A stretch of DNA of 24,000 bases from Methanimicrococcus blatticola (GCF_004363215.1 NZ_SNYS01000009.1:70047-94046); one strand, 5' to 3'. Counted from the first letter of the stretch, positions 16,154 to 20,291 are shown. Made by a program: numbers and translations. The notes: generated by a model not told the origin, from the sequence alone.

Positions 16154-16924
16154 ATGATTTCTAAAAAACAATTTATTTTAATTCTTGTCATCCTCTTGGC
16201 GGTTATTGGTCTTATCGGATCGGGCTGTCTGAAAGAAGACGATAATTCATCGAACGGAACAGACCGTACAAACAACAATTCGTCAAACGTGACTCAGCCG
16301 AATGCCACTCTCGGTTTTTCCGCTAAATTCGGTACGCAACCGATAATGCTTTGGGATTCTTATCCTGAAAACGAAAATCCAAGATTTTACATGTATGTTC
16401 CGGCAAAAGAAGTTGAAGGGAACGATTTGATTTTAACGTTTAATAAGACCGTCGACAATATCGAAACGTATGATGAAAAAATTATTTTTGCTCTTCCGCT
16501 GGCTTCCGGTAATATTGTAACGGTTTCAATTGTTGATGAGTCGTCAGCCTCTTTTGAGCCCGCTAACACTGATCCGACAACGCCAAGCTTAACTGTTACT
16601 GTTGACAATAAATCCTATGACATTTTCATCTTGGCATCGGCTGTTATTGATATGGATATCGGTTCTAACGGATCTTTGAAATTTACAGACAATACCGGAA
16701 CTTATGATTTCGAAAAGAAAGAATATGTTGCGGTTGATATTAATGAAAATGTCACTTTTATGCCGGTTCCTGACAAAGGATATGCGGTTTCTTCATTTGT
16801 TATTACGACGGGGGAATATGAAGTGTATAATGAAACTTCACTGCCGTCTTACACATTTAAGCCGGAAAGCCTCACTTATACAGTAAAAATTACATTTGAG
16901 CCGATAGAATCAGCAAACGGGTGA
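16154..16924 (+). CDS. Secreted lipobox protein, paralogue 1 (one ~200-aa module) of a tandem surface-protein family
   Basis: It has a signal/anchor MISKKQFILILVILLAVIGLIGSGC (lipobox-like G-S-G-C) and an N/S/T-rich linker. The module carries the landmarks YMYVPAKEV, SYDIFILASAV and a C-terminal beta-rich YTFKP...YTVKITFEP. The ATG at 16154 is preferred over the GTG at 16145, because GTGGT looks like the ribosome-binding site. Confidence 0.7.
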   Translation: MISKKQFILILVILLAVIGLIGSGCLKEDDNSSNGTDRTNNNSSNVTQPNATLGFSAKFGTQPIMLWDSYPENENPRFYMYVPAKEVEGNDLILTFNKTVDNIETYDEKIIFALPLASGNIVTVSIVDESSASFEPANTDPTTPSLTVTVDNKSYDIFILASAVIDMDIGSNGSLKFTDNTGTYDFEKKEYVAVDINENVTFMPVPDKGYAVSSFVITTGEYEVYNETSLPSYTFKPESLTYTVKITFEPIESANG

Positions 16925-17110
16925 ATGGCTGTTTGATTTATTGTTATAATTGACTTTTGAAATATTTCATCTCTTTTAGCACTCCCTTAATTTCTGGCAA
17001 CGTATATATATATTATATACAATTTATATTATTTTGTTTCATTAGGGGAATCCCTCTTAATGATTTTTTTATTTAATCTATATTAATTTATTTTTACAGT
17101 GGTATTTTAC

Positions 17111-18598
17111 ATGACTATTCAAAAAAAGCAATTAATTTTCATTCTTATCATCCTCTTGGCCGTTATTGGTCTCGTTGGTTCAGGATGTCTTAAGAACAAT
17201 GATGACGATTCATCGAATGGAACAGGTACAGGCGATAATTCTCAAAACAGTACCCCCCCGAGTAATAACAATACGTCAAATAACACGACAAATAATACAA
17301 ACAACACAACCAACACGCCTCCCACTTCCGGATTACCTGATGTCGTTTACGCAACTCCGGGCAGCGGCGGCGGACGCGGCAACAGCGCACCTACTGAAAT
17401 CACTTCAAAAGTGGGCGACCAAACAGTCGTTGTTGAAGAGTACGAAGGAGATGAACCAAATACTTACAATGTTTACGTCTATGTACCCGCAGCAGATATT
17501 GTAACAGATGACATATTGAGTATTACATTTTTGAAATCCGTTGACTCTGTTGTTGTTTCAGCGGGGTCCGAGTCTGTTCTTAAAGATGCTGTTTCTAATG
17601 GTAAAAGTGTGACTGTTAAAGCCGCAGTGGATGAGCCTGGTTTTGGTACATGGGACACTCCAAATCTTGAAGTTAAAATTGGTGATGATACTTACTACGT
17701 TTCATTCTTTGCTTCATCTGTATGGAATTTTGATGTTGCAAAAGGCGGTCAAGTTTCTATTGTTGAAACAGTCTATCTCGATAGGGATGATAAAATTGTT
17801 ACAGTCAAAGGCTCTGCCAAGAAAACTGTTGTCGCTGAACCCGGAGAAACGCGTATTACGATAAAGGCCGACAAAGGCATGGCAGGAGCATTAGTTATTG
17901 AAGACAGCGAAGGCAACCCGGTTGAATGTCGTGCGGAAGGGTATACTTCCATATTCACAGCAGAAAGTAAAATCTATTCCGTCAAAACAACTTTTGAAAC
18001 AGCTGTCAAAGCAAGTCTCATAATTGATGGCAAAAATCAAAACATCATTGTGGATCAGAATTTGGTTGAAAATGGAAATATTTTCCTTTATGTTCCTGCA
18101 GAAGATATTCTTGGTGAAAAAATTCTTTTGAAATTTAACTCTAATATTACATCTTTAACTGTAAGGGATAATCTTATTTTTTCTGGTGATGTTGCCGGTG
18201 TTAGGATTATCGGTTTTAAAGATATAGAAGCTACCATGAGTGAGACTAATAAAGTAACCCAAAAAGGTGGCGTTAATCCGAATACAATCAGTTTTGTAGT
18301 TGAAACTGAAAACGGCACATATAATGTTTACTTGCTGGCTTCAGCTCTTCTTAACTTTGAGATTCCGGAAGGCTACACTTTAACAGTTGACAATGCATTA
18401 GATTTGGAGGCAGGCAAACATAGTTTTGTAACTGATGTTGGCAAACAGCATACTTTTAGTTTCACTCCCGATGGTGAGAATAAATTTGTTTTAATTGGCT
18501 CTTCTGATGGTGAATTTATTGAATCGACCCCTCATGAATATACGTTTTTAAAAAGTCAAATCTATACAATAACAATTGTTGAACGTATCGTTGGCTAA
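17111..18598 (+). CDS. Secreted lipobox protein, paralogue 2 (two modules)
   Basis: It has the signal MTIQKKQLIFILIILLAVIGLVGSGC, an N/T-rich sequon linker and the motif TPPTSGLPDVVYATPGSGGG. Two modules follow: VYVYVPAADI...TYYVSFFASSV and IFLYVPAEDI...TYNVYLLASAL. The ATG at 17111 is preferred over the GTG at 17099. Confidence 0.7.
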   Translation: MTIQKKQLIFILIILLAVIGLVGSGCLKNNDDDSSNGTGTGDNSQNSTPPSNNNTSNNTTNNTNNTTNTPPTSGLPDVVYATPGSGGGRGNSAPTEITSKVGDQTVVVEEYEGDEPNTYNVYVYVPAADIVTDDILSITFLKSVDSVVVSAGSESVLKDAVSNGKSVTVKAAVDEPGFGTWDTPNLEVKIGDDTYYVSFFASSVWNFDVAKGGQVSIVETVYLDRDDKIVTVKGSAKKTVVAEPGETRITIKADKGMAGALVIEDSEGNPVECRAEGYTSIFTAESKIYSVKTTFETAVKASLIIDGKNQNIIVDQNLVENGNIFLYVPAEDILGEKILLKFNSNITSLTVRDNLIFSGDVAGVRIIGFKDIEATMSETNKVTQKGGVNPNTISFVVETENGTYNVYLLASALLNFEIPEGYTLTVDNALDLEAGKHSFVTDVGKQHTFSFTPDGENKFVLIGSSDGEFIESTPHEYTFLKSQIYTITIVERIVG

Positions 18599-18609
18599 TC
18601 ACAAGAATT

Positions 18610-18651
18610 AAGAACGATCTGCCGTTCTTATTTCTTTTTTATTTTTTGTCT
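18610..18651 (+). terminator. Stem-loop plus oligo-T terminator after paralogue 2
   Basis: AAGAACG (18610-18616) and CGTTCTT (18623-18629) form a 7-bp stem with loop ATCTGC. This is followed by ATTTCTTTTTTATTTTTTGTCT, the same 17-mer found after rpoA2. Confidence 0.6.
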
Positions 18652-18815
18652 GTTTCTTTTTATCTCTCTTTTCAATTCTATATCATTTCTGAAAATCTAT
18701 ATATTCAATAAGCGAATTATTTATTTAATGCCCATTTTATAAAAATTTCAAAATTGGCTGTAACAGCTGATGCAAATGGGTTTTCGTTAATTCATTAATA
18801 TGGTGGTTTAGAAAT

Positions 18816-20291
18816 ATGATAACTCAAAAGAAGCAATTATTTTTAATTTTTATAATTCTCTTTGCCGCTATCGGAATTGTCGGGGCCGGGTGCCTGAAAT
18901 CCGGTGACAGCGCAGCAAATGATACGGTAAATAACACAACAAACAATACCACAAACGACACAACAAACAACAATACAAATAACAACACGAATTCCAATAA
19001 CAATACCAATAACAACACAACAAATAATACAACGAACAACACGCCTCCAACTTCCGGATTGCCTGATGTTGTTTATGCAACTCAGGGCAATGGCGGAGGC
19101 GGCAAAAGCAACAGCGCACCCTCCTCCCCCGCAACATTAAATGGGAAAGAGGTCGTCGTAGACCAGTCTCCGGCTGTTGATGGTGTTGTGAAATGGTATT
19201 TCTATATTCCTTCAACTGAAATAATAGACGAAACCATTGTATTGACAATGCCCGGAGTAATTACTGATTTTAATGTCGAAACCACAAGTTTAATTGCTCC
19301 CATTGGAACTACAGAAACGAATTCTTCTTACGACGGTAAAGTTGCAAACATTTATTTCTCAGGTGATACAACAACACCCTGGAATACGCCTGACTTAACG
19401 ATCTCAGTCGGTGATGTTGAGTATAAAATTTCTTTCTATGCAACAGCTGCATGGGAAGCTTCTGCAACAGCAGGCGGCTCTTTTGAATTTGTTGAACTCG
19501 CAAATCCGGCTGATGCCGGCCGTGTGTTTAATATCGCAAGAATTAGTGCCGGCGCAACAAAATATTTTGTTTCTGAAGAAAGAGTTATTGAGTTTACATT
19601 AACGCCCAATAACGGATATACAGGATTCTTGGAAGTGACTGATTCAAACGGCGACCCGGTTGATTTGACTAAAAAAGACTCTAATACATACGAAACTTCA
19701 GCAGTTGTTACATCTCAAACTTATACGGTGAATGCAATTTTTGAAAAGAAAGCGGTTGCAACAGATGAAGACGGTAATAAACTCGTTGTAGACCAAAATC
19801 TGGTCGCAAATCGGAATATTTTCATTTATGTTCCTTCCGGAGAAATTGAAGATGAAGATATTTCAGTAGATATCGGAAAATCCGTTAGCGGGGCTGTTGT
19901 AATTAACTCATATGCTGTTGCTTCTGCAACACCTTCCGGCAATATTGTCACTATTACAATGGCATCCCCAATTTCCGGTTTAGAAAATGGTGGAATACCG
20001 GCTCCCTCTACTGTTACAGTTGAGGCAACAGCATCCGACGGAACTGTTTATAATATCTTTGTTTTAAAATCGGCAGTGCTTAAAATTACTGTGCCAAGCG
20101 GAGTTACATTAATTTCGGATGGAGGATTGGATTTAACTTCCGGAACATATTATTTCGTGACTGATATTAATTCTAAAGACCTGTTCACAGCATCCGCGGG
20201 AACTGTCTATATTGACGGCACTCCAGCTACGTCTGATTACACTTTCAGTGAAAGTAAAACATATGTGTTGACAATTGAACCAACAACTTAA
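18816..20291 (+). CDS. Secreted lipobox protein, paralogue 3 (two modules)
   Basis: It has the signal MITQKKQLFLIFIILFAAIGIVGAGC, a longer N/T-rich linker and the motif TPPTSGLPDVVYATQGNGGGG. The modules are WYFYIPSTEI...EYKISFYATAA and IFIYVPSGEI...VYNIFVLKSAV. Confidence 0.7.
   Translation: MITQKKQLFLIFIILFAAIGIVGAGCLKSGDSAANDTVNNTTNNTTNDTTNNNTNNNTNSNNNTNNNTTNNTTNNTPPTSGLPDVVYATQGNGGGGKSNSAPSSPATLNGKEVVVDQSPAVDGVVKWYFYIPSTEIIDETIVLTMPGVITDFNVETTSLIAPIGTTETNSSYDGKVANIYFSGDTTTPWNTPDLTISVGDVEYKISFYATAAWEASATAGGSFEFVELANPADAGRVFNIARISAGATKYFVSEERVIEFTLTPNNGYTGFLEVTDSNGDPVDLTKKDSNTYETSAVVTSQTYTVNAIFEKKAVATDEDGNKLVVDQNLVANRNIFIYVPSGEIEDEDISVDIGKSVSGAVVINSYAVASATPSGNIVTITMASPISGLENGGIPAPSTVTVEATASDGTVYNIFVLKSAVLKITVPSGVTLISDGGLDLTSGTYYFVTDINSKDLFTASAGTVYIDGTPATSDYTFSESKTYVLTIEPTT

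What the first reader, a model, noticed from the sequence alone, without database searches (positions are those of the whole stretch)
16154..20291. Tandem family of three lipobox surface proteins built from one or two copies of an uncharacterised ~200-aa module
Three same-strand genes share near-identical signal/anchor regions (K-K-Q-[FL]-x-[FL]-I-[LF]-[VI]-I-L-[LF]-A-[AV]-I-G-[LI]-[IV]-G-[SA]-G-C-L-K). Each has its own AT-rich upstream region.

The mature parts are made of a recurring module with three landmarks:
- [FY]-[MVLI]-Y-[VI]-P-[AS]-x-[ED]-[IV] near the start;
- Y-x-[IV]-x-[FIL]-[FLY]-A-[ST]-[AS] in the middle;
- a beta-rich C-terminal half ending Y-[TS]-[VI]-x-[IAT]-x-F-E, which resembles divergent InlB-B-repeat-like domains.

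Paralogue 1 has one module and paralogues 2 and 3 have two each, so there are five in total. I do not recognise the N-terminal half of the module as any named family.
Basis: partly seen in the sequence, partly recalled or inferred. Interest (0 to 1): 0.6.

Follow-up and report, generated by a model that had tools for sequence, protein, structure and literature searches.

The report
Stalked surface lipoproteins of a gut methanogen
Three neighbouring genes of an insect-gut methanogen (Methanimicrococcus) encode predicted lipid-anchored, sugar-coated, stalked surface proteins; each repeat unit joins a beta-sandwich domain found only in this genus to a known bacterial-type repeat, and the most likely role is adhesion, which is interesting but not surprising for a gut microbe.

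Summary
Three same-strand genes encode paralogues with one, two and two copies of a ~200-aa module: 16154-16924, 17111-18598 and 18816-20291. Each has a conserved signal peptide ending in an invariant G-[SA]-G-C.

The genome is a Methanimicrococcus, an arthropod-gut methanogen of the Methanosarcinaceae.

**The module is two beta domains** (AlphaFold2 pLDDT 91).
- The C-terminal ~90 aa is a divergent InlB B-repeat (Pfam Flg_new_2).
- The N-terminal ~110 aa is an Ig-like beta-sandwich with no Pfam, PDB-sequence or convincing fold match.
- The N-domain was found only in this genus: 15 representatives among 1.84 billion proteins, and 0 of 73 genomes from other Methanosarcinaceae genera.

**The locus varies between species.** It sits downstream of hisI and carries 0-3 genes, with 1-4 modules per protein. 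In three species the site is empty.

**The stalks** are rich in N-x-S/T sequons, and the genome encodes AglB.

**Most likely reading:** lipid-anchored, N-glycosylated, fast-evolving adhesin-like surface proteins. Surface lipoprotein is about 0.8 likely; adhesion is about 0.5 and inferred only. I class it as a new variant of a known kind, of moderate interest.

This scan's other notes on the same window cover the stalk motif and the linkers separately.

The parts
16154..16924 (+). Paralogue 1 (256 aa): signal peptide + lipobox, short N/S-rich linker, one module
   Evidence: ORF and translation. Its orthologue is 78% identical in Methanimicrococcus sp. OttesenSCG-928-J09, at the same place after hisI. 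dN/dS is 0.19.
16154..16228 (+). Paralogue 1 signal peptide ending in lipobox I-G-S-G-C (Cys25)
   Evidence: PS51257 rule met.
16304..16639 (+). Paralogue 1 N-domain: genus-restricted Ig-like beta-sandwich, ~110 aa
   Evidence: AF2 pLDDT 90.6. No Pfam, PDB or fold match of note.
16640..16921 (+). Paralogue 1 C-domain: divergent InlB B-repeat (Flg_new_2-like)
   Evidence: hhalign 96.7%, E 4e-10. Weak direct PF18998 hit, E 0.13.
17111..18598 (+). Paralogue 2 (495 aa): signal peptide + lipobox, sequon-rich stalk, two modules
   Evidence: A 68%-identical relative, P0004, was found.
17111..17188 (+). Paralogue 2 signal peptide ending in V-G-S-G-C (Cys26)
17189..17386 (+). Paralogue 2 stalk: N/T/S-rich linker with 9 N-x-S/T sequons, plus the conserved motif D-V-V-Y-A-T-P-G-S-G-G (about 17339-17371)
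17387..18019 (+). Paralogue 2 module 1 (N-domain 17387-17716, C-domain 17717-18019)
   Evidence: HMM domain envelope; split point.
18014..18595 (+). Paralogue 2 module 2 (N-domain 18014-18343, C-domain 18344-18595)
18609..18640 (+). Hairpin plus T-run after paralogue 2 (terminator-like)
18816..20291 (+). Paralogue 3 (491 aa): signal peptide + lipobox, long sequon-rich stalk, two modules
   Evidence: Its orthologue is 55% identical in MAG locus L027.
18816..18893 (+). Paralogue 3 signal peptide ending in V-G-A-G-C (Cys26)
18894..19115 (+). Paralogue 3 stalk: 14 sequons, plus the motif D-V-V-Y-A-T-Q-G-N-G-G (about 19065-19097)
19116..19769 (+). Paralogue 3 module 1 (N-domain 19116-19445, C-domain 19446-19769)
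19755..20288 (+). Paralogue 3 module 2 (N-domain 19755-20072, C-domain 20073-20288)
20312..20344 (+). Hairpin plus T-run after paralogue 3 (terminator-like)
20740..24000 (+). Context: downstream giant surface protein with Listeria-Bacteroides (Flg_new) repeats. It carries the same D-V-I-I-A-T-P-G-K-G-G stalk motif after an N-terminal membrane anchor.
   Evidence: PF09479 E 9.5e-36; motif.
15687..16094 (+). Context: hisI, the conserved left border of the variable locus in every Methanimicrococcus genome examined

Best explanation
These are three paralogous cell-surface lipoproteins of a Methanimicrococcus, a methyl-reducing methanogen of arthropod hindguts.

**Proposed mechanism**
1. Each precursor is exported by Sec through an N-terminal signal peptide: K-K-Q, then 18 uncharged residues.
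2. It is lipid-modified on the invariant Cys of G-[SA]-G-C and cleaved in front of it. The archaeal lipoprotein pathway (AliA/AliB type) would do this. The mature protein then hangs from the outer face of the membrane.
3. An unstructured N/T/S-rich stalk of about 25 aa (paralogue 1) or 70-75 aa (paralogues 2 and 3) follows. It carries 7-14 N-x-S/T sequons and is N-glycosylated by AglB.
4. The stalk lifts one or two rigid two-domain modules towards or through the S-layer. Each module is a genus-specific Ig-like beta-sandwich followed by a divergent InlB B-repeat.
5. The exposed modules act as adhesin-like binding units for the gut wall, food particles or partner microbes.
6. The family evolves fast by gene duplication, module duplication and gene loss at one site downstream of hisI.

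**Shown here:** gene structure, paralogy, the two-domain fold prediction, the Flg_new_2 relationship of the C-domain, the genus restriction of the N-domain, locus variability, a signal that fits the lipoprotein rule, and the presence of AglB.

**Inferred:** export, lipidation, glycosylation, surface exposure, and above all the binding function.
For: **Signal peptide and lipobox**
- All 17 full-length members fit PS51257, with an invariant G-[AS]-G-C.
- About 25 other ORFs in the genome end an N-terminal hydrophobic run with [SA]-G-C-[LI]. Many of these then continue with G-G-D-D and sequon-rich linkers, so this is the organism's standard lipoprotein design.

**No other anchor**
- The proteins end right after the last module. 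They have no C-terminal hydrophobic tail, LPXTG or PGF-CTERM.

**Glycosylation**
- There are 7-14 sequons in the first 100 mature residues.
- An STT3/AglB homologue scores 107.8 bits, above the cut-off.
- Thomas et al. 2021 (PMC9723798) report that M. blatticola keeps AglJ and AglB.

**Fold**
- The module model has pLDDT 91.4 and pTM 0.85, is all-beta and has two domains.
- The nearest PDB folds are tandem Ig-like surface proteins, but the fit is weak (TM 0.3).

**C-domain = Flg_new_2:**

**Adhesin context**
- The next gene is a 1198-aa Flg_new repeat protein.
- Thomas et al. describe the gain of Flg_new adhesin-like proteins and fast-evolving surface proteins as the gut adaptation of this genus.

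**Fast evolution and a variable locus**
- Family members are 27-55% identical between species, against 58-90% for the adjacent genes.
- There are 1-4 modules per protein and 0-3 genes per locus.

**Functional genes**
- The frames are intact and dN/dS is 0.19 for paralogue 1.
Against: - No experiment or dedicated predictor supports lipidation.
- Position -3 is Gly rather than L/V/I.
- The 18-residue hydrophobic run is long enough to be an uncleaved membrane anchor.
- I could not test for AliA/AliB in this genome.
- Thomas et al. note that the genus has almost no glycosyltransferases, so any glycan would be minimal.
- Nothing shows binding. Ig-like and B-repeat domains are also used as passive spacers, and the ligand is unknown.
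- Two genus members with fairly complete genomes lack the family, so it is dispensable.
Confidence: 0.6

Rival explanations
1. They are structural envelope proteins, not adhesins. The lipid-anchored stalked modules would act as spacers or struts between membrane and S-layer, or as S-layer-associated scaffolds, without an external ligand.
For: - Ig-like and B-repeat domains commonly serve as rigid spacers.
- The modules have no recognisable ligand-binding domain.
- The conserved residues look like core structural positions on strands.
- Overall selection is purifying.
Against: - The family is missing from three genus members whose hisI locus is intact and from all other Methanosarcinaceae searched. 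That is odd for a core envelope part.
- Copy and module numbers vary freely.
- Divergence is much faster than in neighbouring genes.
- The genes sit beside an adhesin-like Flg_new gene.
Confidence: 0.2
2. They are not lipoproteins. The N-terminal hydrophobic segment would be an uncleaved signal anchor (type II membrane protein) or an ordinary Sec signal cleaved by signal peptidase I, and the Cys would not be lipidated.
For: - The h-region is 18 residues, long enough to span a membrane.
- Position -3 is Gly, outside the strict lipobox.
- The downstream Flg_new protein uses a plain N-terminal membrane anchor with the same stalk motif.
- No predictor or experiment is available.
Against: - G-[AS]-G-C-L is invariant across members that otherwise share about 30% identity.
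- The same [SA]-G-C-[LI] ending recurs at the end of about 25 signal-like N-termini genome-wide.
- Lipobox proteins are reported to be prevalent in Euryarchaeota, and Cys-dependent maturation is shown in Haloferax (PMC12462473).
Confidence: 0.15
3. They are decoys or receptors in a virus-host or predator-prey arms race. The variable locus would be shaped mainly by selection to escape archaeal viruses that use these proteins as receptors, rather than by adhesion.
For: - The locus shows presence/absence polymorphism, module shuffling and fast divergence.
- The stalks are glycosylated and exposed.
Against: - No mobile-element, defence or viral genes lie next to the locus in the loci read.
- dN/dS of 0.19 gives no sign of positive selection in the one pair that could be measured.
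- This reading is not exclusive of adhesion.
Confidence: 0.05

Closest known systems
Adhesin-like proteins with Listeria-Bacteroides / InlB B-repeats (Pfam Flg_new PF09479 and Flg_new_2 PF18998) of gut methanogens: Methanomassiliicoccales and Methanimicrococcus blatticola (Thomas et al. 2021, PMC9723798)
   Same: - Same organism group and habitat.
- Surface proteins built from repeated small beta domains, evolving fast.
- The C-domain of every module is homologous to Flg_new_2.
- An Flg_new giant is the next gene.
   Different: - The B-repeat is not tandemly iterated. It alternates 1:1 with a ~110-aa domain that has no named family.
- The proteins are short (1-4 modules) and anchored by a lipobox signal rather than a transmembrane segment or PGF-CTERM.
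- The window's copies fall below Pfam's threshold, so domain-based surveys would have missed them.
Archaeal lipobox lipoproteins (Haloferax volcanii substrates of AliA/AliB; Nat Commun 2025, PMC12462473)
   Same: An N-terminal signal peptide ending in a lipobox Cys; predicted Sec route; euryarchaeal host.
   Different: - The known examples are mostly solute-binding or redox proteins.
- Here the passenger is a stalked repeat protein, and position -3 is Gly.
- Lipidation is untested, and the presence of AliA/AliB in this genome was not tested.
Gram-positive pilin and MSCRAMM-type tandem Ig-fold surface proteins (e.g. Streptococcus pyogenes major pilin Spy0128, best Foldseek hits)
   Same: Two tandem beta-sandwich domains in an elongated surface protein.
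   Different: - The fit is poor: TM about 0.3 and 8-10% identity.
- There is no sortase signal and no sequence relationship.
- This is a resemblance of general shape only.
Bacterial fibrillar adhesins with glycosylated or low-complexity stalks (Monzon & Bateman 2022, PMC9210967)
   Same: The logic is the same: anchor, stalk, then displayed domains. Both evolve fast and vary in repeat number.
   Different: - This is an archaeal envelope, with a lipid anchor at the N-terminus.
- The stalk is an N-glycosylation-sequon tract rather than repeated folded stalk domains.
- No recognised adhesive tip domain is present.

Membership tests
Prokaryotic membrane lipoprotein signal (PROSITE PS51257 / lipobox) | K or R within the first 7 residues of the precursor | tested here: met
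   K-K at positions 4-6 in all three proteins.
Prokaryotic membrane lipoprotein signal (PROSITE PS51257 / lipobox) | No charged residue in the 6 positions before the box, then [LIVMFWSTAG](2)-[LIVMFYSTAGCQ]-[AGS]-C, with the Cys at position 15-35 | tested here: met
   My script of the rule matches all three proteins and all 17 full-length relatives. Cys lies at 25-31 after an 18-residue uncharged run.
Prokaryotic membrane lipoprotein signal (PROSITE PS51257 / lipobox) | Strict lipobox consensus [LVI] at -3 | tested here: not met
   Position -3 is Gly (I-G-S-G-C, V-G-S-G-C, V-G-A-G-C) in every family member. Other lipobox ORFs of this genome have L/V/F/A there.
Prokaryotic membrane lipoprotein signal (PROSITE PS51257 / lipobox) | Prediction by a dedicated tool (SignalP 6 LIPO class, LipoP) | not testable with these tools
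   No such predictor is among the tools.
Prokaryotic membrane lipoprotein signal (PROSITE PS51257 / lipobox) | Lipid modification of the Cys and cleavage before it; biogenesis enzymes (AliA/AliB, arCOG02177/02178) present in the genome | not tested
   The paper gives no Pfam accession, and I had no sequence to search with. Lipidation itself needs an experiment.
Divergent InlB B-repeat domain (Pfam PF18998, Flg_new_2), C-terminal half of each module | Match to the Pfam HMM above the gathering score (23.6 bits) | tested here: not met
   The whole proteins give no PF18998 hit at E <= 1. The isolated C-domain of paralogue 1 scores 12.7 bits, E 0.13. Five of 21 family C-domains hit, with best E 7.7e-5.
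Divergent InlB B-repeat domain (Pfam PF18998, Flg_new_2), C-terminal half of each module | Homology by profile-profile comparison over the full domain length | tested here: met
   hhalign of the 21-member C-domain alignment against six Pfam-verified Flg_new_2 instances gives probability 96.7%, E 4.3e-10, over 80 of 84 columns. The N-domain control gives 0.2%.
Divergent InlB B-repeat domain (Pfam PF18998, Flg_new_2), C-terminal half of each module | Reciprocal retrieval: the profile finds recognised family members at the recognised domain coordinates | tested here: met
   Beyond the family itself, the module profile hits multi-repeat proteins through its positions ~113-199. All six checked carry PF18998 at E 1e-21 to 1e-52, with coinciding coordinates, e.g. 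74-155 against 72-155.
Listeria-Bacteroides repeat (Pfam PF09479, Flg_new) | Match to the Pfam HMM | tested here: not met
   None of the three proteins matches. The downstream gene 20740-24000 matches at E 9.5e-36.
Any named family for the N-terminal ~110-aa domain | Consistent sequence, profile or fold match | tested here: not met
   - Pfam scans of 21 members give 18 different sub-threshold families, each in one member.
- NCBIfam: nothing.
- PDB profile search: nothing.
- Foldseek against PDB: best E 0.024, TM 0.55, to an accessory beta-sandwich of a GH35 enzyme.
- BFVD: best E 1e-3, TM 0.42.
- Not related to the C-domain.
- HHpred against Pfam/CATH could not be run.
Sortase-assembled Gram-positive pilins (top fold hits) | C-terminal LPXTG-type sorting signal and a hydrophobic tail | tested here: not met
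   The proteins end directly after the last module, with no sorting motif or tail. Fold TM is only about 0.3.
Adhesin-like proteins of gut methanogens (functional class) | Export signal plus repeated extracellular beta domains | tested here: met
Adhesin-like proteins of gut methanogens (functional class) | Demonstrated binding to a host, dietary or microbial ligand | not testable with these tools
   Needs binding assays.

The most novel reading that the evidence does not exclude
The ~110-aa N-domain is a lineage-specific invention of arthropod-gut Methanimicrococcus that provides ligand specificity, for example for hindgut cuticle or partner microbes. The hisI-adjacent locus would then be a size- and copy-variable surface-antigen cassette that sets the attachment niche or host range of each species. 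That would make it the first defined lipoprotein-anchored adhesin family in Archaea.
Probability: 0.25. Interest if true: 0.55.

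Novelty: new variant of a known kind. Interest (0 to 1): 0.38.

Why it matters
Gut methanogens are thought to adapt to their hosts mainly by remodelling the cell surface, yet most of the gained surface proteins are annotated only as 'hypothetical'.

- **What this family adds.** It gives a concrete, unannotated architecture for Methanimicrococcus: lipobox anchor, sequon-rich stalk, then alternating orphan Ig-like domain and InlB B-repeat. 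Pfam-threshold surveys miss it.
- **A test case for archaeal lipoproteins.** It offers a set of non-enzymatic, non-transporter substrates for the newly found archaeal lipoprotein pathway.
- **A test case for minimal N-glycans.** It bears on what N-glycan stalks do in an archaeon that has lost almost all glycosyltransferases.
- **A possible marker.** The variable hisI-adjacent locus could serve as a marker of strain- or host-specific surface types.

None of this overturns current views. It refines them.

Tried and rejected
- **The search for related loci with the five-module alignment** failed because no stretch was conserved enough. With paralogue 2 alone it found nothing. The full-length alignment worked through the signal-peptide pattern.
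- **The first homologous-protein search** was swamped by low-complexity words and returned only five proteins. The exhaustive representative search replaced it.
- **The whole-module fold search** gave only generic tandem-Ig hits at TM 0.3, so I modelled the N-domain alone.
- **Rejected: the N-domain is a diverged copy of the C-domain or of Flg_new_2.** hhalign gives 0.6% and 0.2%.
- **Rejected: membership in the Gram-positive pilins.** There is no sorting signal.
- **Rejected: pyrrolysine read-through extends the proteins.** The stops are TGA/TAA.
- **My first lipobox regex** required [LVIFMA] at -3 and missed these three genes. The PROSITE-style rule recovered them.
- **A self-built alignment of the neighbour's Flg_new repeats** for a further hhalign control failed for lack of a format converter, and I dropped it.
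- **dN/dS** was computed for paralogue 1 only. The other orthologue pairs are too diverged.

Full report
**What is there**

Positions 16154-20291 carry three consecutive + strand genes of 256, 495 and 491 aa.

The spacers between the genes are 59, 186 and 217 nt at 22-26% GC, against 38-40% in the genes. Paralogues 2 and 3 are each followed by a hairpin and a T-run. Separate transcription is therefore plausible, but not shown.

**The organism**

The genome holding the window is 1.78 Mb in 13 contigs. The relatives of these proteins and of the flanking genes are all Methanimicrococcus: M. hongohii Hf6, M. stummii Es2, M. hacksteinii At1, a cockroach single-cell genome, and MAGs. These are methyl-reducing methanogens of arthropod hindguts in the family Methanosarcinaceae.

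**Checking the observation**

- *Signal regions.* The three N-termini share K-K-Q, an 18-residue uncharged run and G-[SA]-G-C-L-K. Identity over the first 30 residues is 63-79%, against 13-45% over most of the mature proteins. They are clearly conserved, but not near-identical.
- *Module count.* All pairwise blastp comparisons of the five proposed modules give E from 0.04 down to 5e-25 in a five-sequence database. An HMM built from them finds one, two and two domains. An N-domain profile finds exactly five copies in the whole genome.

**What the module is**

AlphaFold2 on the 21-module alignment gives a confident all-beta model of two domains (pLDDT 91.4, pTM 0.85).

*C-terminal ~90 residues.* This is a divergent InlB B-repeat (Pfam Flg_new_2, PF18998).
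- In a HMMER search of 1.84 billion representative proteins, the hits outside the family itself are large multi-repeat proteins, matched only through profile positions ~113-199.
- All six that I scanned carry Flg_new_2 at E 1e-21 to 1e-52, at coinciding coordinates.
- hhalign of the C-domain alignment against six Pfam-verified instances gives 96.7% probability and E 4e-10 over the whole domain. The N-domain control gives 0.2%.
- The window's copies nevertheless fall below Pfam's threshold. The whole proteins give no hit. Five of 21 isolated C-domains hit, with best E 7.7e-5.

*N-terminal ~110 residues.* This is a nine-strand Ig-like beta-sandwich (separate model, pLDDT 90.6) for which I found no family.
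- Pfam hits are inconsistent across the 21 members.
- NCBIfam and a PDB profile search find nothing.
- The best Foldseek match in PDB has E 0.024 and TM 0.55, to an accessory sandwich of an archaeal GH35 enzyme.
- The best match in BFVD has E 1e-3 and TM 0.42.
- It shows no relationship to the C-domain.

**Distribution**

All 15 belong to this family, and those that carry a name are 'hypothetical protein' of Methanimicrococcus.
- Across whole genomes it is present in 5 of 7 sampled genus members plus the window's own genome, and in none of 73 genomes from 15 other Methanosarcinaceae genera. An earlier single-sequence search gave 7 of 10 within the genus and 0 of 30 outside it.

**The locus**

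In every genome that has the family, the first copy lies directly downstream of hisI. Content varies:

| Genome | Content |
|---|---|
| This window | three genes, five modules |
| M. hongohii and M. stummii | two two-module genes, about 5 kb apart |
| One MAG (L030) | one 894-aa gene with four modules |
| A second MAG (L027) | one two-module gene |
| Cockroach single-cell genome | a one-module gene followed by the Flg_new giant, as in this window |

In three genus members (93, 79 and 66% complete) hisI is followed directly by the next conserved gene, and the family is absent from that site.

A maximum-likelihood tree of the modules puts all second-position modules in one clade (support 97/97). 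It also shows that the four-module protein arose by a recent duplication of a two-module unit.

Between species the family is 27-55% identical, while the adjacent housekeeping genes are 58-90% identical. The one close orthologue pair (paralogue 1, 78%) has dN/dS 0.19, so that gene is under purifying selection.

**Anchor and stalk**

- *Lipoprotein rule.* All 17 full-length members fit the PROSITE PS51257 rule as I scripted it, with Cys at 25-31 and an invariant G-[AS]-G-C. Position -3 is Gly rather than L/V/I.
- *A genome-wide design.* About 25 other ORFs in the genome end a signal-like N-terminus with [SA]-G-C-[LI]. Many continue with G-G-D-D and N-x-S/T-rich linkers.
- *Sequons.* The three proteins carry 7, 9 and 14 sequons in their first 100 mature residues.
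- *Glycosylation machinery.* An AglB/STT3 gene is present. Thomas et al. 2021 report that M. blatticola keeps only AglJ and AglB among glycosyltransferases, so any glycan would be very small.
- *Stalk motif.* Paralogues 2 and 3 also carry the motif D-V-V-Y-A-T-x-G-x-G-G at the stalk-module junction. They are 93% identical in protein and 86% in DNA over 28 residues there. Within this genome the motif occurs otherwise only in the downstream Flg_new giant. Its role is unexplained.
- *No other anchor.* No C-terminal anchor or sorting signal exists.

**Interpretation**

The best reading is a family of lipid-anchored, N-glycosylated, stalked surface proteins that display one or two rigid two-domain modules. 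I put surface lipoprotein at about 0.8.

A binding or adhesin-like role is the most likely function, at about 0.5. The grounds are indirect:
- the B-repeat relationship;
- the adjacent Flg_new adhesin-like gene;
- the published picture of surface remodelling and adhesin gain in this genus;
- the fast, copy-variable evolution.

No result here shows binding.

The rivals are a purely structural envelope role, an uncleaved signal anchor instead of a lipid anchor, and virus-driven variation.

Archaeal lipobox proteins and their AliA/AliB pathway are established in Haloferax (PMC12462473). I could not test for those enzymes here.

**Novelty**

The parts are of known kinds: an archaeal lipobox signal, a sequon-rich stalk, an InlB B-repeat and an Ig-like sandwich. 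Gut-methanogen adhesin-like proteins are a known theme.

Three things are new: the genus-restricted N-domain, its strict 1:1 alternation with a B-repeat, and the lipoprotein anchoring of such a protein in an archaeon. I found no description of this family in the one paper I read on the matter, and database names are 'hypothetical protein'.

I rate it a new variant of a known kind, with moderate interest.

**Limits**

- Genome completeness in this genus reads low (57-93%), so absences are stated as 'not found'.

Noticed in passing
window 17339-17371, 19065-19097 and about 20970-21010: The stalk motif D-V-[VI]-x-A-T-x-G-x-G-G sits between the linker and the first folded domain in paralogues 2 and 3 and in the otherwise unrelated Flg_new giant. 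These are its only three occurrences in the 1.78-Mb genome. Paralogues 2 and 3 are 93% identical in protein and 86% in DNA there, against about 30% elsewhere. Its function is unknown; a processing, attachment or S-layer-docking site is possible.
   Followed up: partly
whole genome G000 (e.g. C4:219224-223135, C1:72137-73364, C4:143016-143819): About 25 ORFs carry a signal ending in [SA]-G-C-[LI]. Roughly half continue with G-G-D-D and then runs of N-x-S/T sequons (up to 12 in 90 residues). A lipobox followed by an acidic patch and a sequon-rich stalk seems to be a general lipoprotein design in this organism, which is reported to have almost no glycosyltransferases.
   Followed up: partly
L036 (G002:C23), L037 (G003:C6), L038 (G008:C25): In three other Methanimicrococcus genomes hisI is followed directly, or after one 297-aa gene, by a conserved ~700-aa gene (N-terminus M-T-x-R-K...). 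The lipoprotein family is missing there. In M. hongohii and M. stummii that ~700-aa gene lies between two family genes.
   Followed up: partly
L030:7008-9692: An 894-aa family member has four modules. Modules 1 and 3 pair with each other, and so do modules 2 and 4, on very short branches. This indicates a recent in-frame duplication of a whole two-module unit.
   Followed up: yes
window 16154-16921 versus L029:7998-8768: Synonymous divergence of paralogue 1 from its orthologue (dS 0.65) is well below that of the four flanking genes (dS 1.1-1.9). This could mean recent exchange between lineages or codon constraints. The neighbours' dS is near saturation, so I treat it as a hint only.
   Followed up: no
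proteins P0009 (M. hacksteinii At1, MmiAt1_10850), P0012: Some database gene calls of family members begin at or just before the stalk motif and lack the signal peptide and linker. The start is probably mis-called, or the assembly breaks in the low-complexity N/T-rich DNA.
   Followed up: no
window 16136-16153 and 17090-17110: Paralogues 1 and 2 share the leader C-A-G-T-G-G-T-A-T just upstream of their ATG codons. The duplication therefore included the 5' leader. The in-frame GTG codons at 16145 and 17099 lie within it and are probably not the starts.
   Followed up: no
G000:C6:54227-55171: An AglB/STT3 oligosaccharyltransferase homologue lies in a 1021-aa open frame (107.8 bits against PF02516).
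   Followed up: no
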